Below are positions 9,104-46,186 of a stretch of DNA of 64,000 nucleotides, piece after piece (within the stretch, counting starts at the first letter, position 1; each line of letters opens with the position of its first letter). The DNA lies in the NCBI RefSeq assembly GCF_045037415.1, contig NZ_CP173438.1; one strand, given 5' to 3'. This stretch comes from Escherichia coli. GTDB lineage: Bacteria > Pseudomonadota > Gammaproteobacteria > Enterobacterales > Enterobacteriaceae. Position numbers and translations under genes: made by a program. The notes beneath the pieces are model-generated. The model did not search any database, was not told the DNA's origin, and saw nothing but the letters and a program-made list of their open reading frames with translations.

Positions 9104-9129
9104 TTCTCCCGATGTCCTCAATTGAAATG

Positions 9130-9158
9130 AACCCGATGATCTGCGCATCGGGTTTTTT
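9130..9158 (+). terminator. intrinsic terminator after the motAB-cheAW operon
   Basis: Hairpin aacccgatgatctgcgcatcgggtt followed by a T6 run. Confidence 0.5.
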
Positions 9159-9247
9159 ATTTCAATTTCGCGGCGGGTGGCATCAGCAATAAAGTTTCCC
9201 CCCTCCTTGCCGATAACGAGATCAACTTGTTTTCAGGAAGGTGCCTT

Positions 9248-20543: not shown

Positions 20544-21299
<756 letters not shown>

Positions 21300-21344
21300 T
21301 TTTTACCGTTGCATCATGTCGCCCAATATGATGCTTGCTCGTAC

Positions 21345-21378
21345 CAGGCCCCTGCAATTTCAACAGGGGCCTTTTTTT
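21345..21378 (+). terminator. intrinsic terminator after cutC
   Basis: Hairpin caggcccctgcaatttcaacaggggcc followed by a T7 run. Confidence 0.45.
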
Positions 21379-35873: not shown

Positions 35874-35984
35874 TTTTCTTCTCCTCTCATGGCTGTTGAT
35901 ACTAAAGTAACAGAATTTCTTGATACTTTGGATTCCTGTGGTTAACATCGTTGAATAACAAAGTATCTGGTGTGAGACTAAAGA

Positions 35985-36212
35985 ATGACCCTTTATGAAA
36001 TATTAAAAATTCAATTTAAAACCAATGCCGCTATTGGTCGCAGGTTCCCAAAGAAAGGAAGGCCTCGTGGCAGTCAAGGTGTTGGAAAGTGGAAAACGCG
36101 AGGTGTTCCGGAGGATGTTGCCATTCTTTGTCATCTGGATCCGAGCATTCCATATACACACCCAAGTCTAGCGAATACAGAAGATGACAAGCCCACAGGA
36201 GACCAACAATGA
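35985..36212 (+). CDS. ORF in the cro position (divergent from the repressor); function unverified
   Basis: 75-aa ORF divergent from the cI-like gene; no clear helix-turn-helix by eye, assignment positional only. Confidence 0.3.
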   Translation: MTLYEILKIQFKTNAAIGRRFPKKGRPRGSQGVGKWKTRGVPEDVAILCHLDPSIPYTHPSLANTEDDKPTGDQQ

Positions 36213-36916
36213 ACACCGCAATTTTTAACGGCAAAGCATCCATGACCAGCGTTGAGATCGCAGAGCTGGTGGGAAGCCGACCAGATAGTGTTAAGAGAAC
36301 TATTGAAACACTGGCTAAAAAGGGAATCATCCAATTTCCACAGACTGTGGAAATTGAGAATAAACAATCACTTGGGCCTCGCCGATTTTCTAGCGCGTAT
36401 GTATTCGAAGGTGAACGAGGTAAGCGCGACAGCATCATTGTCGTCGCACAGCTCTGTCCTGAATTCACAGCTCGCCTGGTAGATCGCTGGCGCGAACTGG
36501 AAGAACAGATCCGTAAGCCAATGAGCGAAATCGAAATGGTTGCCGCGATGGCTCTTGAAGCCGTTCGCCAACAGAAACGGATCACTCAGGTGGAAGAAAA
36601 AGTCAGCCACGTTGCTGAAACAGTCGAGCAAATTAAAAAGGGCACTATTCGTGAGGGCTATGCCGGATATCGCCAACTGAAAGCAAAAACCGGTTTGTCA
36701 GATGATAAATGCCGCAATCTGGTGAACGCCTATCAAATTCCTACAGACACACATGAGTTCATGACGCCGGACGGATTGTTGTCACGTCGCGCAATTGTTG
36801 CTGTGGAACCGTTTATGGCTGCTTTTTATCGGGTTATGGAGGAAGCAGAACCGCGAGGGACTCGCTGGTATCACCCGAAAATGGGGTTATTTCAGGTTAT
36901 TGGTTGGCAGCGGTGA
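36209..36916 (+). CDS. Rha-like / antirepressor-like phage regulatory protein
   Basis: 235-aa ORF; N-terminal segment MTSVEIAELVGSRPDSVKRTIETL resembles the Rha-type DNA-binding motif pattern. Confidence 0.45.
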   Translation: MNTAIFNGKASMTSVEIAELVGSRPDSVKRTIETLAKKGIIQFPQTVEIENKQSLGPRRFSSAYVFEGERGKRDSIIVVAQLCPEFTARLVDRWRELEEQIRKPMSEIEMVAAMALEAVRQQKRITQVEEKVSHVAETVEQIKKGTIREGYAGYRQLKAKTGLSDDKCRNLVNAYQIPTDTHEFMTPDGLLSRRAIVAVEPFMAAFYRVMEEAEPRGTRWYHPKMGLFQVIGWQR

Positions 36917-37024
36917 AAAAAAGCCGGGAGTAACCCGGCTCACTCAACATCAATAACGGGGAGCTGTTTCGCATAAAACGGCTCCGAAACATCCAAGAAC
37001 AGTTCTAAAGATATCAGCAGCTAT

Positions 37025-37325
37025 ATGATCATTTCAAGACCAAATATTGATTCTGCAATTTCGGGACGTTACACTGTCTCCGCACCTTATAAAGCGGGTG
37101 CCGGGATTGGCGTCCTGAAATTGTCAACGGCGATGTATGACGCGCCAGCGTCTTTTTTATCGTCCGCATTTGCTCACATCCAGATTATGGTGGGCTGGGC
37201 GGGGGCACCGAAAGGTGCGCCGGTTCTCCGTTGACGCCGGTTACGCCAACCCCGTCCAGTTCACCACCAGTGAAATTGGCGTTTCCGGTGGTGGAAGTTT
37301 TTCACTGTCAACGGAGGCTGCCATC
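37025..37325 (+). repeat. about 300-bp leader repeat, copy 1 (terminator-like hairpin plus GAAA-tetraloop stem)
   Basis: Direct repeat of 37685-37984; the first about 60 nt are near-identical (atattgattctgcaatt.cgggacgttacactg...accttataaagcgggtgccggg); contains gacgcgccagcgtc followed by T6, and gcaccGAAAggtgc. Confidence 0.5.
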
Positions 37326-37688
37326 ATGGCTACTGTCCTAACTTCCCCATTCCTAAAAATCGAAGTCGTCAACGGCAAGGCCGTTATTTTCTCCCTGCAT
37401 GTTGCCTGCCATTTCAAGCGCATGCACCAGAACATCGTTGACAAAATCGAGTATCTGAACTGCTCACGCGAGTTTTTTACCCGCAATTTCATACCGGGTA
37501 CTTATCACATCTACGGTGACTCCCTGCGTGGTTATTACATCACCCTTGATGGTCTGATGATGCTTCAGCTTGGGTTAAGTCTGCGCACAATGCGGTACTA
37601 CGAGAGCTGTATTGAAGCATTCCATGAGGCTGAAACCGTCCAGGGTCACTCCGCGTTCCGTCGTAATCAACGGGAGGTGCACCTATGA
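37326..37688 (+). CDS. Rha-family regulatory protein (short form)
   Basis: Start placed at MATVLTSPFLKIEVVNGKAVIFSLHVACHFKRMHQNIVDKIEYL... behind a GGAGG Shine-Dalgarno; the Rha N-terminal pattern parallels the next gene. Confidence 0.55.
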   Translation: MATVLTSPFLKIEVVNGKAVIFSLHVACHFKRMHQNIVDKIEYLNCSREFFTRNFIPGTYHIYGDSLRGYYITLDGLMMLQLGLSLRTMRYYESCIEAFHEAETVQGHSAFRRNQREVHL

Positions 37689-37984
37689 TCCGCCACCAGC
37701 ATATTGATTCTGCAATTCCGGGACGTTACACTGCTCAGGCACCTTATAAAGCGGGTGCCGGGCGTGGAAACCCGAAATTCAATATAGAGCACAACCGCGC
37801 TCATGCGGTTTTTTCGTGTCATGAGCATCGTTACACCCAAATTATGGTGGGGCGTGCAGGGCCAACTTCGGTTGGGCCGGGTTCTATGTTGACCGGTATT
37901 TCCACCCCTGTACGTCTCACCACCTATATGGTCGTGGAAAGCCTTGGTGGTGAGTTCATTGAATTCAACATAGGGGCTGTCACC
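37685..37984 (+). repeat. about 300-bp leader repeat, copy 2 (terminator-like hairpin plus UUCG-tetraloop stem)
   Basis: Direct repeat of 37025-37325; contains ccgcgctcatgcgg followed by T6, and ccaacTTCGgttgg; in frame with the downstream Rha ORF, so it could alternatively be coding. Confidence 0.45.
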
Positions 37985-38536
37985 ATGACTACTCTCCCAA
38001 CCCAATCTCACCCTGAAATCACGATTATCAATGGTCGCGTTGTCACCACATCTCTTGCAGTAGCTAATTACTTTACTAAACGGCATGAGCGGGTTTTAGA
38101 TAGAATTAGAAACCTCGAATGTTCCGCTGAATTTACTGAACACAATTTTGTGTTAAGTGAATACACCGACGCATCAGGCCGCAAACTCCCTTGTTACCAA
38201 ATCACCCGCGACGGTTTTGCGTTTCTTGCCATGGGCTTCACTGGTAAACGTGCTGCCCAGTTCAAAGAGGCATACATCAACGCCTTTAACCTGATGGAGA
38301 AGAGTTTATCAGGTGCCGATGCGTCTGATATGTCAGCTGTCGCACGAAACGCCAGAGGCGTATACCTGCATTTGCGTGAAATCCATCAAATCTGGACAAG
38401 CCAGCTTTATCCAATGCTTAAGGCCGTTGAATCTCCGCTGGCTAGCAAACTGTACGACCGTGTTGGTGATGCTGTTTTTGGCGCTGCACTTGTTGATTCC
38501 AGGCTGAATGGTTCTGACAAGGAGGTTCGCCCATGA
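37985..38536 (+). CDS. phage regulatory protein Rha
   Basis: ORF 37685..38536; Rha-like segment EITIINGRVVTTSLAVANYFTKRHERVLDRIRNLECSAEF...YQITRDGFAFLAMGFTGKRAAQFKEAYINAFNLME; start placed at MTTLP behind an AGGGG Shine-Dalgarno. Confidence 0.65.
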   Translation: MTTLPTQSHPEITIINGRVVTTSLAVANYFTKRHERVLDRIRNLECSAEFTEHNFVLSEYTDASGRKLPCYQITRDGFAFLAMGFTGKRAAQFKEAYINAFNLMEKSLSGADASDMSAVARNARGVYLHLREIHQIWTSQLYPMLKAVESPLASKLYDRVGDAVFGAALVDSRLNGSDKEVRP

Positions 38537-38727
38537 TTAGTTACGAAATCATCATCTCCACTACGGAATACAGAAACGATGTATCAGTTCGCACGGATGT
38601 ATCTGTCTGGCACCGTCGCTATAAATCCAGAAAAACAGCGGAACTGAAAGCGGCAGAGATGTGTGAAACCATCTCAATGAAAGGTAGCCCGGTTAAATAC
38701 GTAACTACGGCGGAGGTGCGTCCATGA
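38533..38727 (+). CDS. hypothetical small phage protein
   Basis: 64-aa ORF, ATGA-overlap packing with neighbours. Confidence 0.35.
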   Translation: MISYEIIISTTEYRNDVSVRTDVSVWHRRYKSRKTAELKAAEMCETISMKGSPVKYVTTAEVRP

Positions 38728-38948
38728 TCCGCCACATCGTTAATTCCCTGTATCACCGATACAACCGTTGCCCCCGTGTGGGGCAGTGGTTCGCCACCAG
38801 CAACGGTCACGTTCTGCGGGTTTGCCTAGTCAACGCTGAAAGCCAGAAAGTCGTGTGCGAACTACAGGGGCGTAGCTACACCATCAGTTACCCTCTGGCG
38901 GTATTTCTGTCTGGAAAAATGTTTAAGCGTCTGGGAGGTGTGGCGTGA
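38724..38948 (+). CDS. hypothetical small phage protein
   Basis: 74-aa ORF, overlapping-stop packing. Confidence 0.35.
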   Translation: MIRHIVNSLYHRYNRCPRVGQWFATSNGHVLRVCLVNAESQKVVCELQGRSYTISYPLAVFLSGKMFKRLGGVA

Positions 38949-39244
38949 ACTGTTTTCAGTTTGTGTGCGGATGTGCTTTCGATAACCCGATTCAGCGCCT
39001 AATTATGTTGCGTGTTTTGATGTCGGGTTCTTCAGACGGTGAAGGCGAGAGAGTTATTGATCATCAGGTGCTTGCTGATTTCTGCTGTTGTTCTAAGCAA
39101 GCGATATTCAGGGAAACCCTGGCACTGGAAAGAGCTGGTTATCTTCATATCCGAAAAATTGCAACGCTTACTATTGATGCAAAAGCCAGACTACAACCTG
39201 CGCGTGGCTACACAATTCTCATGCCGCGGAAGGAGGTTGTATGA
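38945..39244 (+). CDS. hypothetical protein, possible DNA-binding
   Basis: 99-aa ORF directly upstream of the replication module. Confidence 0.35.
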   Translation: MNCFQFVCGCAFDNPIQRLIMLRVLMSGSSDGEGERVIDHQVLADFCCCSKQAIFRETLALERAGYLHIRKIATLTIDAKARLQPARGYTILMPRKEVV

Positions 39245-40227
39245 GCCGTTACGCCCCCACACCGGAAGTTATGGCTATTGGTCAAATTAATATTTCCGGC
39301 AATGTTACACCTGCGAACTGGTGGAAATATATTCGACTACCCAGTGGGCGTCCGGATGCGACGGCTATCGCTCTGCTTTCAGAGATCGTTTACTGGTACC
39401 GCCCGACAGAGGTCAGGGATGAGCACACCGGAGCGTTGCTGGGATATCGCAAGCGTTTTCAGGGCGACAAACTGCAAAGAAGCTACCAGGCGTTTGCTGA
39501 GCAGTTTGGTTTCGGGAAAAGGGAAACCGCAGATGCGCTGAAGCGTCTGCGCGATGCAGGGTTTATTACTCTGGATTTACGCACGGTGGAAATGCTCGAT
39601 GGGGTGAAATGCAGCAATATTTTGTTTGTCGGGATCAACCCACAGGCAATTGCGGCCATCACCACACCTTCTTCTGTTTCGCCAGAAAGTAACAGCAATA
39701 ATGCAATCAGCGATACAGCTATTACGTTAAAACGGAACACCCCCCGACGTCATAACGGAACAGGGGATACGCCGAATGTTGATACAAATACAGAGATTAC
39801 TACAGAGATTACAACGGAGACTAAAAACACTATTGATGCATCCGCTGACGCGTCTGCGCGTTCTGCCCGACAGGAATATTCACCGGAATTTGAACAGGCC
39901 TGGCAGGAATATCCCAAACGTGCTGGTGGCAATTCCAAGTCAGCAGCCTTCAAAGCCTGGAAAGCCCGTATCAGGGAGGGAATAAAACCGGAGACCATGC
40001 TTGATGGCGTGAAGCGGTATGCCGCCTGGGTACGTGCTACAGGAAATACCGGCACACAGTTCGTGAAGCAGGCTGCGACGTTCTTTGGACCCGATCGTCA
40101 CTTCGAAGATTACTGGCAACAGCCAGCCGCTCACGGAGGTGGGCGACAGCGACAGGTCGATGTCCTGGCTGGCCTGGGAGCCATGTCTGACAAATTCGGT
40201 AAATCCAGTAACAAATTGACATTCTGA
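39241..40227 (+). CDS. replication initiator (lambda O-like position) with internal iteron-like repeats
   Basis: 328-aa ORF preceding the DnaC-like and DnaB-like genes; linker region TEITTEITTE encoded by the direct repeats cagagattac(ta) and cagagattac(aa). Confidence 0.55.
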   Translation: MSRYAPTPEVMAIGQINISGNVTPANWWKYIRLPSGRPDATAIALLSEIVYWYRPTEVRDEHTGALLGYRKRFQGDKLQRSYQAFAEQFGFGKRETADALKRLRDAGFITLDLRTVEMLDGVKCSNILFVGINPQAIAAITTPSSVSPESNSNNAISDTAITLKRNTPRRHNGTGDTPNVDTNTEITTEITTETKNTIDASADASARSARQEYSPEFEQAWQEYPKRAGGNSKSAAFKAWKARIREGIKPETMLDGVKRYAAWVRATGNTGTQFVKQAATFFGPDRHFEDYWQQPAAHGGGRQRQVDVLAGLGAMSDKFGKSSNKLTF

Positions 40228-40228
40228 G

Positions 40229-41137
40229 GTGACAGCGATGATGACGATTGACCAACGTGAGAAACAAACAAGACTACAGGCGCGAATGGATGAGTTACGG
40301 GCAGAAATGGATGAGTTACGGGCAGAGATTGCATTTGCTCAGAAGGGCGAAAAGCCATGGCCTTATCGTTCCTGCCTGATGCGTGAAGGTCGCGGATATT
40401 GCGAAAAACACGGTAAATATCGTACGCATATACTGGTGTGGATCGATCGTAATGGCGAGGACAGAGAAAAAATTTCATGCTGCCCTGACTGCTTGATCGC
40501 TGAGGCCAGTGATTTGACCATGGAACTGTCGTCCCTCAAGGCGGAAGAACTGACTGATAACGCCGGAATTGCTCTGCGTTTTCGGGACTGCGAGTTTGAT
40601 AATTATCTGGAGGTTAATCCTGACGCAGCCAGAAATCTTGCGGCCTGTCGCCGCTATGCGGAGAACTGGCCAGATATGCTGGAGAACGGTACCAGTCTTG
40701 TTATGACCGGCAGTTGCGGTACCGGGAAAAATCATCTGGCGGTATCAATGGCAAAACACATCATCCGTAACTATCTGGCCAGTGTGGAGATCACCGACGT
40801 GATGCGCCTTACCCGGGCTGTGAAAAACTGCTGGCGGAATGACAGTGAAAAAACAGCGGATGACGTCATTGAGCATTATGCGTCACTGGATTTGCTGATT
40901 GTCGACGAAGTCGGCGTTCAGTTTGGCAGTGCGGCTGAAATGGCCATTTTGCAGGAAATTATCAATGCCCGGTATGAGGGTATTTTGCCAACTATCCTGA
41001 TCAGCAACCTTTCACCGGAAGAATTGTGGGCGTTCATCAGTCCCCGGATTGCCGACAGGATCACCGATGGCGGGCGCAACTGGTTGTCGTTTAACTGGCC
41101 CAGCTACCGTTCTCGTATCGGAGGTGTTGCCGCATGA
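40229..41137 (+). CDS. DnaC-like helicase loader (AAA+ ATPase)
   Basis: 302-aa ORF with Walker A GSCGTGKNHL and Walker B LLIVDEVG. Confidence 0.75.
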   Translation: MTAMMTIDQREKQTRLQARMDELRAEMDELRAEIAFAQKGEKPWPYRSCLMREGRGYCEKHGKYRTHILVWIDRNGEDREKISCCPDCLIAEASDLTMELSSLKAEELTDNAGIALRFRDCEFDNYLEVNPDAARNLAACRRYAENWPDMLENGTSLVMTGSCGTGKNHLAVSMAKHIIRNYLASVEITDVMRLTRAVKNCWRNDSEKTADDVIEHYASLDLLIVDEVGVQFGSAAEMAILQEIINARYEGILPTILISNLSPEELWAFISPRIADRITDGGRNWLSFNWPSYRSRIGGVAA

Positions 41138-42534
41138 CCAGCCAGAACACCCCGGCATGGCGTAACGATGACCTGGAAGGCGCTGTCATCGGTGCGTTTT
41201 TTCTGCGTGGGGCCGATCCGGAAGTGATGGATATTCTGGCCACACTTCCGGCGGATGTATTTTTTGTGCGTCAGTACCGGGATATTTACGCGGGGATTTG
41301 CAGACAGGCTCGCATATCCGGCGTCATTGACCCCGTACTGCTGTGCAATGAGATGCCGGAACTTGCCCCGGTGATTACCGACACCGGACGCAAAACCTGG
41401 GTGAAGTCTTCACTGGAGCACTATGTCGCAGCGTTGCGGCGCAATGCCGCACTGCGTGATGCAGAAAAAACACTGACTGAAGCATTACAGAATTTACGTG
41501 ATGCGTATACCTGTGAAGCAGCCGAGGATGCCCTGAAGGATGCGCAGAACATGATGGCCTCACTGTCGACCGGAAAGGGCGTCATTCAGCCGGTTCACAT
41601 TGATGATGTCCTTCCGGAAGTGGTCGACCGTGTTGAATGCCGCAATCAGGGACTGGAGAAATCCAGGGCGCTGATGACCGGTATTGATGAACTGGACGCA
41701 AAAACGGGCGGTATGGAGCCCGGAGACCTGGTATTCATTGCCGCCCGTCCTTCGATGGGGAAAACCGAACTTGCGCTGGACATCATCGACAAGGTGACTG
41801 AGCAGGGGCATGGCGTGCTTCTGTTCACCATGGAGATGGCGAACATCCAGATTGGTGAACGTATGGTGTCTGCTGCCGGTGGAATGCCGGTATCCCGTCT
41901 TAAGTCTGTTGCCCGTTTTGAAGATGAAGACTGGGCGCGTTTCTCGCAGGGCGTGGGACGAATGACGGGGCGTAATATCTGGATGGTGGACCAGGCAAAC
42001 CTGACCATTGATGAGATATGTGCAACCACGAAGCACCACCGGATGAAGCATCCGGAAACGGCGCTGGTTGTGGTCGATTACCTCGGCCTGATTAAAACCC
42101 GCAGCACGGGGCGTCACGACCTTGCTGTGGGGGAAATCTCAAAGGGACTTAAAAGCCTGGCAAAATCCGGCGGTTTTCCGCTGATTGCTCTGAGCCAGCT
42201 CTCCCGTGGCGTGGAATCCAGACCCAATAAACGCCCAATGAACTCGGACCTGAAAAACTCCGGGGAAATCGAGGCGGATGCCGACATCATTCTGATGCTT
42301 TACAGGGAGGAGGTATACAACCCGGAAACTCAGGCCAGAGGCATAGCAGAAATCAACATCACGAAACAGCGTAATGGCACGCTCGGGACCATTTACCGGC
42401 GTTTTCATAACGGACATTTTCTGCCTGTGGACCAGGAGAGTGCCCGGGTTCTTTCCACACCAATGCAACAGCCCCAGCCGCGCAGATACAGCAACAAACG
42501 AACTGACAGCAGTAAGATGGAGCGTTTCTTTTGA
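41134..42534 (+). CDS. DnaB-family replicative DNA helicase
   Basis: 466-aa ORF with Walker A ARPSMGKTELALD and DnaB-like C-terminal domain motifs (VVVDYLGLI, LSQLSRG). Confidence 0.85.
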   Translation: MTSQNTPAWRNDDLEGAVIGAFFLRGADPEVMDILATLPADVFFVRQYRDIYAGICRQARISGVIDPVLLCNEMPELAPVITDTGRKTWVKSSLEHYVAALRRNAALRDAEKTLTEALQNLRDAYTCEAAEDALKDAQNMMASLSTGKGVIQPVHIDDVLPEVVDRVECRNQGLEKSRALMTGIDELDAKTGGMEPGDLVFIAARPSMGKTELALDIIDKVTEQGHGVLLFTMEMANIQIGERMVSAAGGMPVSRLKSVARFEDEDWARFSQGVGRMTGRNIWMVDQANLTIDEICATTKHHRMKHPETALVVVDYLGLIKTRSTGRHDLAVGEISKGLKSLAKSGGFPLIALSQLSRGVESRPNKRPMNSDLKNSGEIEADADIILMLYREEVYNPETQARGIAEINITKQRNGTLGTIYRRFHNGHFLPVDQESARVLSTPMQQPQPRRYSNKRTDSSKMERFF

Positions 42535-43156: not shown

Positions 43157-43219
43157 AATCGTTCTACTTTCCCAACTTTTATGTGTATATAATACCAGGA
43201 TAAAGTAACGGAGAATCTT

Positions 43220-44260
43220 GTGAACATTCAGGCAGTAGACATTTTTTGTGGTGCGGGGGGCTTAACTTTTGGGCTAAAAAAAGCCGGGATTGAGGTTTCT
43301 CATGGTATTGATATTGATGAATCCTGCCGTTTTGCTATTGAGAGCAATAATCCTTTAACGCAGTTCATTAATCAGTCAGTTACAGAACTGCAATCCTGCG
43401 ATGTGTCTGCTATGTTCAAGGAAGGAAATATTAGATTGCTTGCTGGATGTGCTCCTTGCCAACCGTTTTCCAAGTATCGTAATCCAAATAGCCGTAAAGA
43501 CGATACAAAGTGGCGTTTGTTATATGAGTTTCAAAGGCTTGTAAGTGATGTCATGCCAGAGCTTGTGACGATGGAGAATGTTCCTCAACTTAGAAACCAT
43601 AAGGTTTTTGAAGGGTTTGTTAGTGCATTAAAGACTCTTGGATATCATTTGTGGTACGACGTTGTAAGATGTTCTGAGTATGGCTTACCTCAAAATAGAC
43701 GTAGATTAATTCTAATTGGTTCCCAATTGGGGCCGATCAGCCTTGATCAAAAAAAAGTTAGCCGTAAAGTTACTGTTAAGGATGCTATTGGTAGGTTGCC
43801 AAAAGTAGGGGCAGGTGAGAAGCTGGAAAGCGATCCCTTGCATCGTTCGCCTAAATTGATGGATATCAATCTTAAACGAATCATGCATTCTTTACCTGGT
43901 GGTACGTGGGATGACTGGCCTGAAGAAATTAGAGCAGACTGTCATAAAAAGAATTCAGGTGCTACCTATAAAAGCGTTTATGGACGGATGGTTTGGGACG
44001 ATACTAGCCCTACGATAACTACCCAGTGTTATGGATATGGAAATGGACGATTTGGCCATCCTGAGCAAAATCGCGCCATAACTTTGCGTGAAGCTGCGAT
44101 TTTGCAATCCTTTCCAATGGATTATAAATTCCTTGACAAGGAGACGCCTTTTTCATTCCAAAAATTGGGGACAATGATTGGAAATGCTGTTCCCCCTATA
44201 ATTGGTCAGATAATAGGGGAAACATTTATCAGACATGTTGAGGGGATAAATACCCGTTAG
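43220..44260 (+). CDS. DNA (cytosine-5)-methyltransferase, Dcm family
   Basis: 346-aa ORF, GTG start; C5-MTase motifs I FCGAGG, IV PCQPFS, VI ENV, VIII QNRRR and X GNAV are all visible. Confidence 0.85.
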   Translation: MNIQAVDIFCGAGGLTFGLKKAGIEVSHGIDIDESCRFAIESNNPLTQFINQSVTELQSCDVSAMFKEGNIRLLAGCAPCQPFSKYRNPNSRKDDTKWRLLYEFQRLVSDVMPELVTMENVPQLRNHKVFEGFVSALKTLGYHLWYDVVRCSEYGLPQNRRRLILIGSQLGPISLDQKKVSRKVTVKDAIGRLPKVGAGEKLESDPLHRSPKLMDINLKRIMHSLPGGTWDDWPEEIRADCHKKNSGATYKSVYGRMVWDDTSPTITTQCYGYGNGRFGHPEQNRAITLREAAILQSFPMDYKFLDKETPFSFQKLGTMIGNAVPPIIGQIIGETFIRHVEGINTR

Positions 44261-44918
44261 AGGTAATATAATTTTCTGTTGAGTTGATTAATAAACGCAA
44301 ATATAGATCAATTCTTTCTGACCTCGATTTGACTTCTTCTAAAGGGTCTATTTGACCTTTTTTAGAAAAGCTGGTACTTCCATGTGCCAGCTCATTTCTG
44401 ATATCTTTAAGTAAATCTAAGTCAACACCATTTCTACACTCTGGTGAGTTTGCAACAGTTATTCCGTAAGCTTGTGTTATTTTGTGCAATACAGACTTGC
44501 AAACATTACCATTGAATTCTTTACGTATGTTTAATGAGGCTGAAATGATCCTTTTAGATATATCGGAACCAATTTTTTGATAAAGAGATTTTCCCGATTC
44601 ATTATCTGAAATGATACGGTGCAAGATATTTACTTGGAATTTCTCCCTGAGTGATGCGTAATTTACTTCATTATCTTGCAAATGGTCATAAATTGACTCA
44701 ATGCATCCTCTGGCAGTGTTTTCAACCTGATTGTACAGCATCATGTGCACGGATGATTTTAAAATGTTAACCCTAAGGGTATTTGATTCTATTTCATCTT
44801 TATGCGTTTGCTGATCTAACTGCTGAGTCTGAGCCTCTAAAGATGACGCAAGAGAAAGCAATTCCATAATATCTCTTGCTCTTTCTTCGTATTCATCTCT
44901 TAAATCAATCAAACTCAT
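44229..44918 (-). CDS. HEPN-domain protein (predicted RNase/nuclease), partner of the DUF262 protein
   Basis: 229-aa ORF; C-terminal Rx4H HEPN motif (DIRNELAHG); ATG 2 nt after the stop of the upstream DUF262 gene with an AGGA Shine-Dalgarno inside that gene's 3' end. Confidence 0.65.
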   Translation of the reverse strand: MSLIDLRDEYEERARDIMELLSLASSLEAQTQQLDQQTHKDEIESNTLRVNILKSSVHMMLYNQVENTARGCIESIYDHLQDNEVNYASLREKFQVNILHRIISDNESGKSLYQKIGSDISKRIISASLNIRKEFNGNVCKSVLHKITQAYGITVANSPECRNGVDLDLLKDIRNELAHGSTSFSKKGQIDPLEEVKSRSERIDLYLRLLINSTENYITSNGYLSPQHV

Positions 44919-44920
44919 AG

Positions 44921-46078
44921 TTACATTCCTAATAATTTATCTTTGACATAAAATATTCTGTTTTTGAGTTGGCTGGTGTTGTTGGCACTATCAGCAGTAA
45001 CTATGGTTTCAAATTCCTCCCCAAACAGCCAGTCTCCTACAGGAATAACCGGAGCCTGTAGATGTGGATTGGCTTTTAAGGCAAGAGCAGTTCCCACTGC
45101 TATGGCTTCGTATCTAGCACGGGGGGTGGTTTTGCTTGTTGGTGTCTTTTTAAACCCCATAGGGAAATGAGCATCTACAAAAGCAAGCATGCTTTCAAAA
45201 TCATGTTTAAATTTGTCTACATCTTGTTGTGTGACCCTTTCGGCCTGAACATTAAGATAATTGTCAATAAAAGGAGCGACATAACCCTTATAATTTTCTA
45301 AATCATTTAAGTATGCAAAAAATCTCAAAACTAACTCACGATGATCGCCATTCGAACGTTTCCGGTCTGATAATGGAGCTAGACTAGCGAAAAGTGGATT
45401 TGTTGAGCAAGGAGTCACAACATCCCTATAGAAAATTGAAGTGGCCGCATCTGAACCATGTCTAACCTCCATCGCTTCCAGTCTCTTAACACCTGAATTT
45501 ATTCTTTCGAATAAATCTCTTCTATGTTGCTCCTCAACATCACCTTTCAATTCAATAAATCTTAGTGATGCCCTTAAAAATCGCCTCTGGCGGCTAGCCA
45601 AAAGATCTGAAAATTTGAAGCCCTCTAAACTTTTGAGTTCTTTTAAGTCTTTCAATTCAAACTGATTGTTCCAAAAGTAGTAAATTGAGCGAATCCTTTG
45701 TGAACCGTCAATAATTTCTACACGACCATCCAACTCAGGATCTTCATTAAATACGTCGGAGATGTAGAGGTACGGGATTGGAAAATCTAATAATATACTT
45801 TCGATGAATCGAGAGGCTGTTTTGATATCCCATTTGTAATCGCGTTGATAATCAGGAATAAAAAGTTCGTTTTTGTCAGTTTCAAGATTATTGCCATACT
45901 TTTGTACAATTAATTCAACGGTCCATTCACGTACGTTGTATCCAATATTTCTCTGAGCAAGCCTAATCTCGTTGTCGGCAGAAGTGACCAAGGCTGCAAT
46001 TTCAGCTTTTTTTCTATTTTTCGCGTTTTCATCTTGAATCTGAGCAAGCTCTTCTTTGAGTTCTTTGAGTGTGGTCAT
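44921..46078 (-). CDS. DUF262 (ParB/Srx-like, GmrS-N-type) domain protein without an HNH/DUF1524 domain
   Basis: 385-aa ORF; DUF262 hallmarks FIPDYQRDYKW and IIDGSQR near the N-terminus; long helical C-terminal region with no nuclease motif. Confidence 0.75.
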   Translation of the reverse strand: MTTLKELKEELAQIQDENAKNRKKAEIAALVTSADNEIRLAQRNIGYNVREWTVELIVQKYGNNLETDKNELFIPDYQRDYKWDIKTASRFIESILLDFPIPYLYISDVFNEDPELDGRVEIIDGSQRIRSIYYFWNNQFELKDLKELKSLEGFKFSDLLASRQRRFLRASLRFIELKGDVEEQHRRDLFERINSGVKRLEAMEVRHGSDAATSIFYRDVVTPCSTNPLFASLAPLSDRKRSNGDHRELVLRFFAYLNDLENYKGYVAPFIDNYLNVQAERVTQQDVDKFKHDFESMLAFVDAHFPMGFKKTPTSKTTPRARYEAIAVGTALALKANPHLQAPVIPVGDWLFGEEFETIVTADSANNTSQLKNRIFYVKDKLLGM

Positions 46079-46186
46079 ATCACTGTTCCTTTAATTGGAG
46101 TTGGAAATAGATTGTAAGAAAACTATAACGCGTACGCAAAAAATATTATATCGTGTTAAGAGTGGTTACTACGCCACACAGCTTAA

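What the first reader, a model, noticed from the sequence alone, without database searches (positions are those of the whole stretch)
37025..37984. Two about 300-bp direct leader repeats upstream of Rha genes with terminator-like hairpins and covarying tetraloop stems
Copy 1 (37025-37325) and copy 2 (37685-37984) share a near-identical roughly 60-nt core. Each then has a GC hairpin followed by T6 (37139-37158 and 37795-37814) and a short stem capped by a stable tetraloop, gcaccGAAAggtgc at 37205-37218 versus ccaacTTCGgttgg at 37862-37875. The stems differ in sequence but keep their pairing, a covariation pattern suggesting a conserved RNA structure rather than coding constraint. Each Rha ORF downstream has its own Shine-Dalgarno and ATG. 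Together with the absence of an obvious N-like protein, these could be cis-acting RNA elements (nut-like or HK022 put-like antitermination or attenuation signals) controlling read-through to the replication genes and Q.
Basis: seen in the sequence. Interest (0 to 1): 0.55.

Follow-up and report, generated by a model that had tools for sequence, protein, structure and literature searches.

The report
Tandem phage antisense-RNA immunity cassettes
The two repeats are two copies of a well-known phage control cassette, a short terminated RNA plus the C4/CI antisense RNA known from phages P1, P4 and Gifsy-1, each guarding an anti-repressor-type gene; the feature is real and RNA-based but is an ordinary member of a known kind.

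Summary
Two about 300-nt direct repeats are 67% identical overall, with a 63-nt core of 56/63 identities. They carry the hairpins and T-runs at the stated coordinates.

Rfam identifies each repeat, above its curated thresholds, as an isrK-type sRNA (37082-37158; 37739-37815) followed by a C4 antisense RNA (37183-37271; 37840-37927). The "covarying tetraloop stems" are the first inner hairpin of C4.

The near-identical core is a promoter plus the 5' hairpin of IsrK. This promoter aligns with P1 P51b and P4 PLE.

Each C4 has two single-stranded boxes, a' and b'. They are complementary to one site pair inside its own IsrK (a1, b1) and to another downstream (a2, b2). Box b2 covers the Shine-Dalgarno of the Rha gene. 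The boxes differ between the two copies and covary three ways across about 100 related modules.

This is the P1 c4-icd-ant, P4 seqA-CI-seqC and Gifsy-1 isrK-orf45-anrP mechanism, not nut/put antitermination.

The overlapping "Ash" reading frame shows no codon-like substitution pattern, yet it is kept open in 96% of modules, as with P4 eta. RefSeq annotates only proteins here.

Verdict: new member of a known kind; low interest.

The parts
37025..37234 (+). Module 1: remnant of the long 'Ash-frame' ORF. It starts at ATG 37025, 22 nt upstream of the -35, and stops at TGA 37232-37234 because of one extra T at 37224/37225 in the C4 b' loop.
   Evidence: partial Pfam Phage_ASH, E 7e-4. RefSeq calls 37025-37688 a frameshifted 'ash family protein' pseudogene. 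In-frame relatives have a 12-nt loop, TCTCCGTTGACG.
37047..37075 (+). Module 1 internal promoter: -35 TTGATT 37047-37052, 17-nt spacer, -10 TACACT 37070-37075. It is the equivalent of P4 PLE and P1 P51b.
   Evidence: Coordinates. The hexamers align with the annotated P1c4 (P51b) -35/-10 of P1 and with the P4 sequence. They vary little among 74 relatives. The match is 8/12, below the generic scan threshold. Promoter function is inferred.
37082..37158 (+). Module 1 IsrK/seqA-type sRNA. It contains a1 TTGGCGT 37107-37113 (loop of the second hairpin), b1 TGTCAACGG 37122-37130, and the intrinsic terminator 37139-37152 plus T6 to 37158.
   Evidence: Rfam RF01394, 62.2 bits (gathering 50), full model. 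Terminator scan. Box coordinates.
37183..37271 (+). Module 1 C4/CI-type antisense RNA. It has an outer 17-bp stem and inner hairpin 1 at 37205-37218 (GAAA loop). The loop of inner hairpin 2 carries b' TCTCCGTTGACG 37225-37236. The junction carries a' ACGCCAA 37243-37249. The 3' CACCACC is at 37262-37268.
   Evidence: Rfam RF01695, 77.7 bits (gathering 45), full model. Structure with covariation. Coordinates.
37276..37317 (+). Module 1 downstream target region (seqC equivalent): a2 TTGGCGT 37276-37282 and b2 TGTCAACGGAGG 37306-37317. Box b2 contains the Shine-Dalgarno GGAGG of Rha1.
   Evidence: Duplex energy is -19.2 kcal/mol for b'1:b2_1, against -7.9 kcal/mol with the copy-2 site.
37326..37688 (+). 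Rha1, a 120-aa short Rha-family (Bro-network, anti-repressor-type) gene controlled by module 1. Its stop TGA 37686-37688 overlaps ATG 37685 of the next long ORF (ATGA).
   Evidence: PHROG phrog_995, E 1.6e-55. Sequence. The 120-122-aa form recurs in 15 related modules.
37685..38536 (+). Module 2 long ORF, eta-like (283 aa). About 100 codons of the Ash frame read through the promoter, IsrK-2, the terminator and C4-2, then continue in frame into Rha2. The Shine-Dalgarno GGGAGG lies at 37672-37677.
   Evidence: Phage_ASH E 3.4e-9 plus Phage_pRha E 4.7e-30. RefSeq CDS WP_029700955.1. Open-frame statistics.
37704..37732 (+). Module 2 internal promoter: -35 TTGATT 37704-37709, 17-nt spacer, -10 TACACT 37727-37732.
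   Evidence: Function is inferred by homology to the annotated P1 promoter.
37739..37815 (+). Module 2 IsrK/seqA-type sRNA. It contains a1 GTGGAAA 37764-37770, b1 TCAATATAGAG 37779-37789, and the terminator 37793-37810 plus T-run to 37815.
   Evidence: Rfam RF01394, 61.6 bits. Terminator scan. Coordinates.
37840..37927 (+). Module 2 C4/CI-type antisense RNA. Inner hairpin 1 is at 37862-37875 (UUCG loop), b' TTCTATGTTGA at 37882-37892, a' TTTCCAC at 37899-37905, and the 3' CACCACC at 37918-37924.
   Evidence: Rfam RF01695, 82.4 bits..
37934..37975 (+). Module 2 downstream target region: a2 GTGGAAA 37934-37940 and b2 TCAACATAGGG 37965-37975. Box b2 overlaps the purine-rich Shine-Dalgarno of Rha2.
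   Evidence: Duplex energy is -12.6 kcal/mol for b'2:b2_2. The reciprocal non-cognate pairings are -7.9 kcal/mol (b'1 with b2_2) and -9.0 kcal/mol (b'2 with b2_1).
37985..38536 (+). Rha2, a 183-aa Rha-family (anti-repressor-type) protein when started at its own ATG. It is the equivalent of P4 kil, P1 icd-ant and Gifsy-1 anrP as the gene under C4 control.
   Evidence: PHROG phrog_821, E 2e-105, and TIGR02681 at 100 bits.

Best explanation
Each repeat is a complete phage 'immunity' cassette of the P4/P1/Gifsy-1 type, embedded in the early-right operon of a lambdoid prophage between cro/ant and the replication genes.

1. An internal promoter (-35 TTGATT, -10 TACACT) starts transcription at the G of GCACC.
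2. Most transcripts stop at the intrinsic terminator. This gives a roughly 77-nt IsrK/seqA-type RNA carrying boxes a1 and b1.
3. Read-through transcripts contain the C4/CI-type RNA, which in the characterised relatives is cut out as a stable RNA of about 80 nt.
4. Two single-stranded boxes of C4, a' (junction) and b' (loop of hairpin 2), pair with a2 and b2 just downstream.
5. Box b2 covers the Shine-Dalgarno of the Rha (anti-repressor-type) gene. Translation is therefore blocked and, by polarity, transcription dies before the replication genes.
6. The a1/b1 copy in IsrK binds the same C4 boxes. In cis this locks the leader. In trans free IsrK titrates C4 and activates, as shown for Gifsy-1.
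7. The two cassettes carry different a and b boxes, so each C4 should control only its own Rha gene.
8. On transcripts that start further upstream (pR), a start codon lying upstream of the internal promoter opens a long frame. Ribosomes translating it run through the terminator and C4 and override the RNA control, as shown for P4 eta.

Shown here: the RNA family membership, the structures, the box complementarities with their covariation, and the maintenance of the open frame.

Inferred: promoter activity, RNA processing, repression, specificity in vivo, and anti-repressor activity of the Rha proteins.
For: RNA family membership:
- Rfam matches are full-length and above gathering scores for isrK and C4 in both copies. 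The same two models hit seqA and CI of P4. C4 plus c4-a1b1 hit P1.
- The C4 fold on 34 distinct copies, including P1 and P4, has 98.5% of cells paired and 16/27 pairs with compensatory changes. Slid controls give 35-47%.

Anatomy shared with P1:
- The curated P1 record lists promoter P51b, then a1, b1, C4, a2, b2 and icd in the same order.
- P1 a1 lies 25 nt after the position that aligns with the IsrK 5' end (3231). This is the same offset as in the window (37107 versus 37082).
- The alignment puts the window hexamers on the P1 -35/-10.

Box complementarity in the window:
- Copy 1 pairs ACGCCAA with TTGGCGT (two sites) and UCUCCGUUGACG with TGTCAACGG and TGTCAACGGAGG.
- Copy 2 pairs UUUCCAC with GTGGAAA (two sites) and UUCUAUGUUGA with TCAATATAGAG and TCAACATAGGG.
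- Cognate b duplexes are -12.6 to -19.2 kcal/mol, against -5.5 to -9.0 for cross pairs.

Covariation across relatives:
- IMG/VR relatives include 11 a' classes and 25 b' classes.
- Cognate complementarity is 6.9 and 6.9 nt for a, and 9.2 and 11.1 nt for b. Non-cognate values are 4.7-6.5 nt.
- Only 1.4-2.2% of non-cognate b pairs, and 6.6-17.9% of non-cognate a pairs, reach the cognate median.

Experimental support from Gifsy-1:
- Compensatory mutations G28A/C162U and G31A/C159U define a helix between the middle of IsrK and orf45, which I equate with a1:a'.
- IsrK supplied in trans activates anrP translation more than 100-fold.
- A roughly 80-nt processed RNA (STnc1160) arises downstream of IsrK (PMC4825925).

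Open frame:
- 96/100 distinct modules keep one frame open over -21..+235.
- Distinct stop-containing contexts are 12/95/95 in frames 0/1/2.
- IsrK-to-C4 spacings are 102, 105, 111 or 114 nt in 95/98 modules.
- There is no codon periodicity.
- P1, which lacks an eta-like gene, has stops in all three frames.
- The P4 eta mechanism is summarised in PMC10111431, and the P4 eta ORF is verified.

Folding: both leaders fold far better than shuffles (z -4.1 and -4.7).
Against: - There are no expression data for this strain or prophage.
- The promoter is only an 8/12 consensus match and was not listed by the generic scan.
- Module 1 has lost the long frame (+1 T). RefSeq treats it as a pseudogene, so it may be decaying although its RNA parts are intact.
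- The b'2:b2 duplex of copy 2 is weaker (-12.6 kcal/mol) than b'2:b1 (-15.6).
- The Gifsy-1 study attributes activation to translation of a short upstream ORF (orf45) coupled to anrP. In copy 1 the equivalent ORF (ATG 37190) ends after 14 codons inside C4, so that detail cannot apply unchanged.
- Whether Rha1 and Rha2 act as anti-repressors is inferred from family names only.
- The nearly identical prophage in RefSeq carries several frameshifted genes, so it may be defective.
Confidence: 0.85

Rival explanations
1. The repeats are simply protein-coding. They encode an N-terminal 'Ash' domain (Pfam PF10554) of Rha-family proteins, and the RNA-like features are incidental. This is the view taken by the RefSeq annotation.
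For: - Pfam Phage_ASH matches residues 15-111 of the 283-aa ORF (E 3.4e-9) and matches the 69-aa ORF (E 7e-4).
- PGAP annotates an 'ash family protein' and one long Rha CDS.
- The frame is open in 96% of relatives, and indels are mostly in threes.
- PHROG profiles 821 and 995 include the N-terminal extension.
Against: - Substitution rates are flat across codon positions in the leader (0.285/0.291/0.299), while the adjacent Rha coding region is strongly periodic (0.392/0.285/0.544) (entropies).
- Variation is instead organised as compensatory base pairs and three-way box covariation.
- Both Rfam models score above their curated thresholds.
- The same Pfam family matches the old P4 'cI protein' ORF across the CI RNA. 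From my own recall of the P4 literature, that immunity factor is an RNA.
- Copy 1 is frameshifted yet keeps every RNA feature.
Confidence: 0.07
2. The repeats are nut-like or HK022 put-like cis-acting antitermination sites. They would modify RNA polymerase so that it reads through terminators to the replication genes and Q.
For: - The repeats lie in the early-right operon, upstream of the replication genes and Q.
- No N-like gene is annotated in the near-identical RefSeq prophage.
- Terminators are present inside the repeats.
Against: - No boxA consensus occurs in the whole window.
- No antitermination RNA family is matched, and the region is fully accounted for by isrK and C4.
- The hypervariable boxes pair with each other rather than forming a conserved protein- or polymerase-binding surface.
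- The characterised homologues promote termination and translational block rather than antitermination (annotations; PMC4825925; PMC10111431).
Confidence: 0.02
3. The cassettes are inert relics of a duplication in a decaying prophage. They are recognisable by homology but no longer regulate anything.
For: - Module 1 is frameshifted, and Rha1 is a short form.
- The near-identical RefSeq prophage has frameshifted lysozyme and protease genes and a helicase flagged with an internal stop.
Against: - All pairing boxes are perfectly matched within each module, and both RNAs score as full-length family members.
- The 120-aa Rha form recurs in related modules.
- Tandem pairs recur in 6 of 121 loci, always with at least one differing box. 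This pattern does not look like drift after a recent duplication.
Confidence: 0.06

Closest known systems
Satellite phage P4 immunity region (PLE, seqA, CI RNA, seqC, nested genes eta/kil)
   Same: - The same two Rfam families occur in the same order: isrK on seqA and C4 on CI.
- A terminator follows seqA.
- P4 has a'/b' boxes UUCUCAC and CCUGUGAA matched by GTGAGAA and TTCACAGG on both sides.
- The sequence GGAGGCTGCCATCATGGCTAC at the target gene start is identical to copy 1.
- A long ORF starts upstream of the internal promoter and ends in frame with the controlled gene: eta, 214 aa, 8812->8168. Window copy 2 is built the same way.
- The mechanism is summarised in PMC10111431.
   Different: - The host element is a lambdoid prophage rather than a satellite.
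- The controlled gene is a Rha-family protein instead of the Icd-like Kil.
- There are two cassettes in tandem with different boxes.
- P4 has an extra ~85-nt insertion between seqA and CI.
- In copy 1 the eta-like frame is broken.
Phage P1/P7 immI operon (c4-icd-ant)
   Same: - The C4 RNA belongs to the same Rfam family.
- The curated record gives the same layout: promoter, a1, b1, C4, a2, b2 (at the ribosome-binding site), gene.
- The final output is an anti-repressor.
- From my own knowledge of Citron and Schuster 1990, different a/b boxes give heteroimmunity between P1 and P7.
   Different: - In P1 the upstream element matches the c4-a1b1 model rather than isrK.
- P1 has no open frame through the leader.
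- The direct target in P1 is the icd ribosome-binding site, with ant coupled behind it. Here b2 sits on the Shine-Dalgarno of the Rha gene itself.
Salmonella Gifsy-1 isrK-orf45(STnc1160)-anrP locus
   Same: - An IsrK sRNA carries a leaky terminator.
- The read-through mRNA is translationally silent.
- A helix between the middle of IsrK and the downstream RNA is proven by compensatory mutations (G28/C162, G31/C159). By position, this helix corresponds to a1:a'.
- The downstream gene is anti-repressor-like, and a processed ~80-nt RNA is produced (PMC4825925).
   Different: - The published model works through translation of orf45 coupled to anrP. Here the equivalent ORF is 14 codons in copy 1 and is fused in frame to Rha2 in copy 2.
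- The Gifsy-1 cassette lies downstream of a Q-like gene. These cassettes lie upstream of the replication genes and Q.
Lambda nut sites / HK022 put RNAs
   Same: They are cis-encoded RNA elements in early phage operons that decide whether transcription passes terminators.
   Different: - nut and put elements cause antitermination, by loading N-Nus factors or by acting directly on RNA polymerase.
- The elements here have no boxA.
- They belong to antisense families and repress.

Membership tests
Rfam RF01695 C4 antisense RNA (P1 c4 / P4 CI) | Full-length covariance-model match at or above the gathering score (45 bits) | tested here: met
   77.7 bits (37183-37271) and 82.4 bits (37840-37927), model positions 1-87/87. 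The P1 and P4 references score 68.8 and 74.9 bits.
Rfam RF01695 C4 antisense RNA (P1 c4 / P4 CI) | A long outer stem enclosing two hairpins, supported by compensatory changes | tested here: met
   In 34 distinct copies, 98.5% of cells are paired and 16/27 pairs have both-side changes. Of 500 shuffles, 0 reach the observed values. Slid controls give 35-47%.
Rfam RF01695 C4 antisense RNA (P1 c4 / P4 CI) | Two single-stranded boxes (a', b') complementary to a2/b2 downstream, with b2 at the ribosome-binding site of the controlled gene | tested here: met
   There are 7-nt a and 11-12-nt b complementarities in both copies, and b2 includes GGAGG or GGG(G) 9-13 nt before the ATG. Covariation holds across 11 a and 25 b classes. 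The layout is the same as in the curated P1 record.
Rfam RF01695 C4 antisense RNA (P1 c4 / P4 CI) | Excision from the primary transcript into a stable small RNA (RNase P and other nucleases) | not testable with these tools
   Only the tRNA-like 3' motif CACCACC is seen, at 37262 and 37918. Processing itself needs Northern blots or RNA-seq.
Rfam RF01394 isrK (P4 seqA-type upstream element) | Full-length match at or above the gathering score (50 bits), ending in an intrinsic terminator | tested here: met
   62.2 and 61.6 bits, model positions 1-77/77. Terminators are found at 37139-37158 and 37793-37815. P4 seqA scores 60.8 bits.
Rfam RF01394 isrK (P4 seqA-type upstream element) | Carries a1/b1 boxes complementary to the a'/b' of the C4 RNA that follows it | tested here: met
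   TTGGCGT and TGTCAACGG in copy 1; GTGGAAA and TCAATATAGAG in copy 2. A sub-threshold c4-a1b1 match lies at the same places (23.9 and 23.6 bits).
Rfam RF01394 isrK (P4 seqA-type upstream element) | Hfq binding and trans-activation of the downstream gene | not testable with these tools
   This is known only for Gifsy-1 IsrK (PMC4825925).
P4 eta/kil-type nested gene (translation-dependent bypass) | A long ORF starts upstream of the internal promoter, reads through seqA/CI, and ends in frame with the controlled gene | tested here: met
   Met for copy 2: 37685-38536, with the ATG 19 nt upstream of the -35, an SD of GGGAGG, and an ATGA overlap with Rha1. Not met for copy 1, which has a +1 frameshift and a stop at 37232-37234. 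The frame is open in 96/100 related modules.
P4 eta/kil-type nested gene (translation-dependent bypass) | Translation of the long ORF prevents termination on transcripts from the upstream promoter | not testable with these tools
   This needs nonsense mutants and read-through assays, as was done for P4 (summarised in PMC10111431).
Lambda nut / HK022 put antitermination sites | A boxA consensus (CGCTCTTA-like) followed by a boxB hairpin, or a put-type two-stem RNA | tested here: not met
   Pattern YGCTCTTWA has 0 matches in 64 kb. No such family appears in the permissive Rfam scan of 35900-39300. The put fold was tested only through the absence of any Rfam match.
Pfam PF10554 Phage_ASH as a protein domain | HMM match | tested here: met
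   E 3.4e-9 (residues 15-111 of the 283-aa ORF) and E 7e-4 (69-aa ORF).
Pfam PF10554 Phage_ASH as a protein domain | Purifying selection on the amino-acid sequence (codon-periodic substitution) | tested here: not met
   Per-site differences at codon positions 1/2/3 are 0.285/0.291/0.299 in the leader, against 0.392/0.285/0.544 in the Rha CDS. Entropies are 0.688/0.703/0.709 against 0.94/0.70/1.32.

The most novel reading that the evidence does not exclude
The tandem pair may work as a hierarchical two-lock switch in a lambdoid prophage. The 'Ash' frame would be kept open only so that ribosomes can erase the RNA control.

- Transcripts from the internal promoters would make the two heterospecific IsrK/C4 pairs. 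These keep Rha1, Rha2 and the downstream replication genes silent, and may confer two separate immunities against incoming phages or satellites that carry matching boxes.
- Any ribosome arriving from upstream would translate straight through terminator 2 and C4-2 and override lock 2. Such a ribosome could come from a pR transcript. It could also come from Rha1 once lock 1 is released, via the ATGA stop-start overlap at 37685.
- If so, the Pfam Phage_ASH 'domain' is not a protein domain. It is a reading frame selected for being translated, not for what it encodes.
Probability: 0.3. Interest if true: 0.45.

Novelty: new member of a known kind. Interest (0 to 1): 0.25.

Why it matters
The biological mechanism is already established in P1/P7, P4 and Gifsy-1, so little is new at that level.

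Practical value:
- RefSeq annotates this region, and by extension the matching region in a large share of E. coli genomes, as an 'ash family' pseudogene plus a long Rha CDS. It records no RNA genes here.
- 1724 of 5426 complete E. coli genomes have at least a partial match to this region.
- Recognising the cassettes gives the real regulatory logic of these anti-repressor genes. It also gives a simple sequence read-out, the a and b boxes, of which prophages should cross-regulate or exclude each other.

Analysis of about 100 related modules adds two modest generalisations:
- The three-way box covariation, with free reassortment of a and b classes, extends to lambdoid prophages.
- The P4 eta-type open frame is maintained nearly everywhere without amino-acid constraint.

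Tried and rejected
- nut/put antitermination was rejected. There is no boxA and no antitermination RNA family match.
- A pure protein domain was rejected because the leader shows no codon periodicity.
- Whole-probe RNAduplex between C4 and its targets was uninformative, because the conserved CCGG stems pair promiscuously. It was replaced by box-only duplexes. A first attempt used wrong box coordinates, which were corrected.
- The long N-terminal extensions of the open frame seen in some relatives (start codons at -360, -870 and so on) were translated. They look like non-genic or antisense 'shadow' sequence rather than an extra domain. They are therefore not used as evidence for a fusion protein.
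- Forti et al. 1999 (PMID 10464191, PMC94026) could not be retrieved. The eta mechanism is cited through the summary in PMC10111431 and from my own recall.
- The third GTCAACGG at 37368 was considered as an extra C4 target. It lies in the conserved VVNGK codons of Rha1 and was not pursued.
- The generic promoter scan did not list the proposed promoters. They rest on alignment to the annotated P1 promoter, not on the scan.
Full report
**Observation**

The region 36600-38800 was read directly. The two repeats exist as described.
- A global alignment of 37025-37325 with 37685-37984 gives 67.4% identity. The maximum for copy 1 against 200 random 300-nt windows of the same sequence is 52.6%.
- The best-conserved block is 56/63 identical (37044-37106 versus 37701-37763). 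The repeat finder reports 79-nt (85%) and 48-nt (71%) blocks at a constant 657-nt offset.
- The two GC hairpins followed by T-runs are picked up by the terminator scan, at 37139-37152 plus T6 and at 37793-37810 plus T-run.
- The two tetraloop hairpins are at exactly the stated coordinates.
- Small corrections: the Rha start codons are ATG 37326 and ATG 37985. The upstream frame of copy 1 (ATG 37025) ends at TGA 37232-37234. The upstream frame of copy 2 (ATG 37685) continues without a stop into Rha2.

**What it is**

A scan of the whole window against Rfam at curated thresholds gives six matches, four of them in the finding.
- isrK (RF01394) matches 37082-37158 (62.2 bits) and 37739-37815 (61.6 bits).
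- C4 antisense RNA (RF01695) matches 37183-37271 (77.7 bits) and 37840-37927 (82.4 bits).
- All four are full-length and on the + strand.

- The 'terminator-like hairpins' are the intrinsic terminators that end IsrK.
- The 'covarying tetraloop stems' are the first inner hairpin of C4.
- The near-identical core is the 5' hairpin of IsrK preceded by a promoter-like TTGATT-17-TACACT. Its -10 ends 6 nt before the first nucleotide of the IsrK model.

A permissive Rfam scan of 35900-39300 adds only sub-threshold matches to c4-a1b1 (RF03163), at 37069-37121 and 37726-37778.

**Anchoring to the characterised systems**

P1. The curated P1 record lists the elements in order: promoter P1c4 (former P51b), target sites a1 and b1, C4 RNA, target sites a2 and b2 ('repression of icd ant translation'), then icd and ant1/ant2.

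P4. Rfam puts C4 on P1 c4 and on the P4 CI region, isrK on P4 seqA, and c4-a1b1 on the P1 a1/b1 region.

A four-way alignment of the two window copies with P1 and P4 places the window hexamers on the annotated P1 -35/-10 and on the corresponding P4 sequence. It keeps all elements in register. Copy 1 even shares the string GGAGGCTGCCATCATGGCTAC at the start of the controlled gene with P4.

**Recognition boxes**

Each C4 has two exposed segments: the loop of its second hairpin (b') and the junction that follows it (a').

Copy 1:
- a' ACGCCAA (37243-37249) matches TTGGCGT in the loop of IsrK hairpin 2 (37107-37113) and again downstream (37276-37282).
- b' UCUCCGUUGACG (37225-37236) matches TGTCAACGG in IsrK (37122-37130).
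- The same b' also matches TGTCAACGGAGG (37306-37317), which contains the Rha1 Shine-Dalgarno.

Copy 2:
- The boxes differ from copy 1 but keep the same relationships.
- a' UUUCCAC matches GTGGAAA at 37764 and at 37934.
- b' UUCUAUGUUGA matches TCAATATAGAG at 37779 and TCAACATAGGG at 37965.

Box-only duplex energies:
- Cognate b pairs are -12.6 to -19.2 kcal/mol, against -5.5 to -9.0 for cross pairs.
- Cognate a pairs are -9.1 to -11.9 kcal/mol, against -2.0 to -3.6 for cross pairs.
- One cross a pair reaches -10.7 kcal/mol, but it uses nucleotides that lie in the stem of the IsrK-2 hairpin.

**Relatives and covariation**

From these, 99 distinct 400-nt modules were extracted.
- Among the 84 modules that a strict parser could dissect there are 11 a' classes, 25 b' classes and 33 combinations.
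- In essentially every module both boxes are matched by a site in IsrK and a site downstream.
- Mean cognate complementarity is 6.9 (a1), 6.9 (a2), 9.2 (b1) and 11.1 (b2) nt. For pairs from different classes it is 4.7-6.5 nt.
- Only 1.4-2.2% of non-cognate b pairs reach the cognate median.
- The a and b classes reassort freely between modules.

The C4 fold itself is strongly supported. On 34 distinct copies including P1 and P4, 98.5% of cells pair and 16 of 27 pairs show changes on both sides. None of 500 shuffles reaches the observed values, and slid controls pair at 35-47%.

Both full leaders fold much better than shuffles (z -4.1 and -4.7). Their minimum-energy structures contain the IsrK hairpins, the terminator and the C4 fold.

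**Mechanism**

By homology, an internal promoter makes mostly the terminated IsrK/seqA-type RNA. Read-through transcripts carry C4, which pairs through a' and b' with a2/b2. This occludes the Rha ribosome-binding site, so translation stops and, through polarity, transcription into the downstream genes also stops.

The Gifsy-1 study supplies experimental support for the homologous locus (PMC4825925).
- The isrK promoter drives the downstream anti-repressor-like gene anrP, but that mRNA is translationally silent.
- A helix between the middle of IsrK and the downstream RNA is proven by compensatory mutations G28A/C162U and G31A/C159U. These positions fall in what I call a1 and a'.
- IsrK in trans activates anrP translation more than 100-fold.
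- A processed RNA of about 80 nt (STnc1160) arises downstream.
- The authors themselves compare the locus with P4 seqA/CI.

The different boxes in the two window cassettes predict that each C4 controls only its own gene. This is the same logic as P1/P7 heteroimmunity, which I cite from my own knowledge.

The controlled genes are Rha-family, Bro-network proteins: phrog_995 for the 120-aa Rha1, and phrog_821 plus TIGR02681 for the 183-aa Rha2. Anti-repressor activity is inferred from these family names and from the analogy with ant and anrP.

**The coding question**

RefSeq annotates 37025-37688 as a frameshifted 'ash family protein' pseudogene and 37685-38536 as one 283-aa Rha CDS. It records no RNA genes. 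Pfam Phage_ASH matches the translated leader. It also matches the old 'cI gene product' ORF of P4, across the CI RNA.

- Variability is flat over codon positions in the leader. Entropy is 0.688/0.703/0.709 and pairwise differences are 0.285/0.291/0.299.
- The first 50 Rha codons show the usual periodicity: 0.94/0.70/1.32 and 0.392/0.285/0.544.
- So there is no selection on an amino-acid sequence.

Nevertheless the frame is clearly kept open.
- 96 of 100 distinct modules have an open frame over -21..+235 relative to the IsrK start.
- Mean stops per leader are 0, 3.1 and 4.9 in frames 0, 1 and 2.
- Distinct stop-containing contexts are 12, 95 and 95. Distinct stop positions are 11, 33 and 37. 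These counts are not phylogenetically independent.
- IsrK-to-C4 spacings are 102, 105, 111 or 114 nt in 95 of 98 modules.
- P1 serves as a control. Its c4 leader has stops in all three frames, so the RNA family does not by itself impose an ORF.

This is the P4 eta situation.
- The 214-aa ORF 8812->8168 starts upstream of PLE, reads through seqA and CI, and ends as kil. Its C-terminus is Icd-like.
- As summarised in PMC10111431, full-length Eta is translated only from an upstream promoter, and its translation prevents termination.
- Window copy 2 is built the same way. ATG 37685 lies 19 nt upstream of the -35, has a GGGAGG Shine-Dalgarno, and overlaps the Rha1 stop as ATGA.
- Copy 1 has lost the frame through one extra T in the b' loop, but it keeps all RNA features.

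**Context**

The near-identical RefSeq locus shows a lambdoid prophage next to yecN and a DUF72-protein gene. Its gene order is integrase, a LexA-family repressor, a small cro-position gene, an Ant-like gene (36209-36916; phrog_63), the two cassettes, replication genes and Q. No N-like gene is annotated.

The cassettes therefore sit where they can block leaky or internally initiated transcription into the replication genes.

Parts of the region are widespread. 1724 of 5426 complete E. coli genomes have some match, and 91 carry at least 80% of the tandem. Stx-converting and Salmonella phages carry single modules. Tandem pairs occur in 6 of 121 loci, with spacings of 656-657 or 848-863 nt. The two members always differ in at least one box.

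**Verdict**

The finding is real and correctly recognised as RNA. However, it is a textbook-type phage immunity cassette, detected by two existing Rfam models and mechanistically described in P1/P7, P4 and Gifsy-1.

The modest additions are:
- the tandem, heterospecific arrangement;
- the demonstration that box covariation and the eta-type open frame generalise across about 100 lambdoid-type modules;
- the observation that current protein annotations (Phage_ASH, 'ash family protein') describe a frame without amino-acid constraint.

Noticed in passing
window 37025-37984; also L122 8168-8584 (-): Pfam PF10554 (Phage_ASH) and the RefSeq name 'ash family protein' correspond to the translation of the IsrK/seqA plus C4/CI RNA region. 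The family also matches the historical P4 'cI gene product' ORF. The frame shows no codon-periodic substitution, so the 'domain' is probably not a protein domain under amino-acid selection.
   Followed up: yes
window 36921-36941: A strong hairpin, GAGCCGGGTTACTCCCGGCTT followed by T5, lies on the minus strand just after the Ant-like gene (36209-36916). On the + strand it has no T-run. There is no obvious minus-strand gene for it to terminate. A weak minus-strand promoter-like site lies at 37037-37008.
   Followed up: no
window 37362-37376: A third copy of GTCAACGG (GAAGTCGTCAACGGC, 87% identical to the b1 region 37117-37131) lies 42 nt into Rha1. It encodes the conserved VVNGK motif, so it is probably a coincidence rather than an extra C4-1 target.
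   Followed up: partly
window 37672-37697 and 38707-38735: The junction GGAGGTGC(N4-5)ATGATCCGCCAC recurs at the start of the module-2 long ORF and at the start of the small ORF 38724-38948 (both begin MIRH). The same junction precedes second modules in other tandem loci (L020, L101). It looks like a conserved gene-boundary linker used in mosaic recombination.
   Followed up: partly
window 21071-21378 (+) and 9123-9200 (-): Full-length Rfam matches to the E. coli sRNAs MicL (371 bits) and C0465 (112 bits). These identify the left part of the window as E. coli chromosome around cutC. In the matching RefSeq genome the prophage integrase abuts a DUF72-protein gene next to yecN.
   Followed up: partly
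L124 26271-29129 (RefSeq locus matching the window downstream of Q; about window 43200-46100 by offset): Directly after the Q antiterminator gene the prophage carries three annotated genes: a DNA cytosine methyltransferase and, on the opposite strand, a HEPN-like nuclease (MAE_28990/MAE_18760 family) and a DUF262 protein. This could be a defence or restriction-type cargo island.
   Followed up: no
L124 24185-25585, 32398-32932, 39113-40617: In the near-identical RefSeq prophage the replicative helicase is flagged 'internal stop', and the lysozyme and the S49 protease are flagged frameshifted. In the window itself, the ORF listing shows the helicase ORF 41134-42534 intact. The prophage lineage may be partly defective.
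   Followed up: no
IMG/VR modules with a 254-nt IsrK-to-ATG distance (e.g. L081, L082): In this class the gene under C4 control begins MANRKQ... and lies in a different frame. I did not test whether it is Icd-like, as in P1 and P4. The Ash frame still stays open and overlaps the gene start for at least 75 nt. The controlled gene is therefore exchangeable (this type or Rha types) while the RNA cassette is constant.
   Followed up: partly
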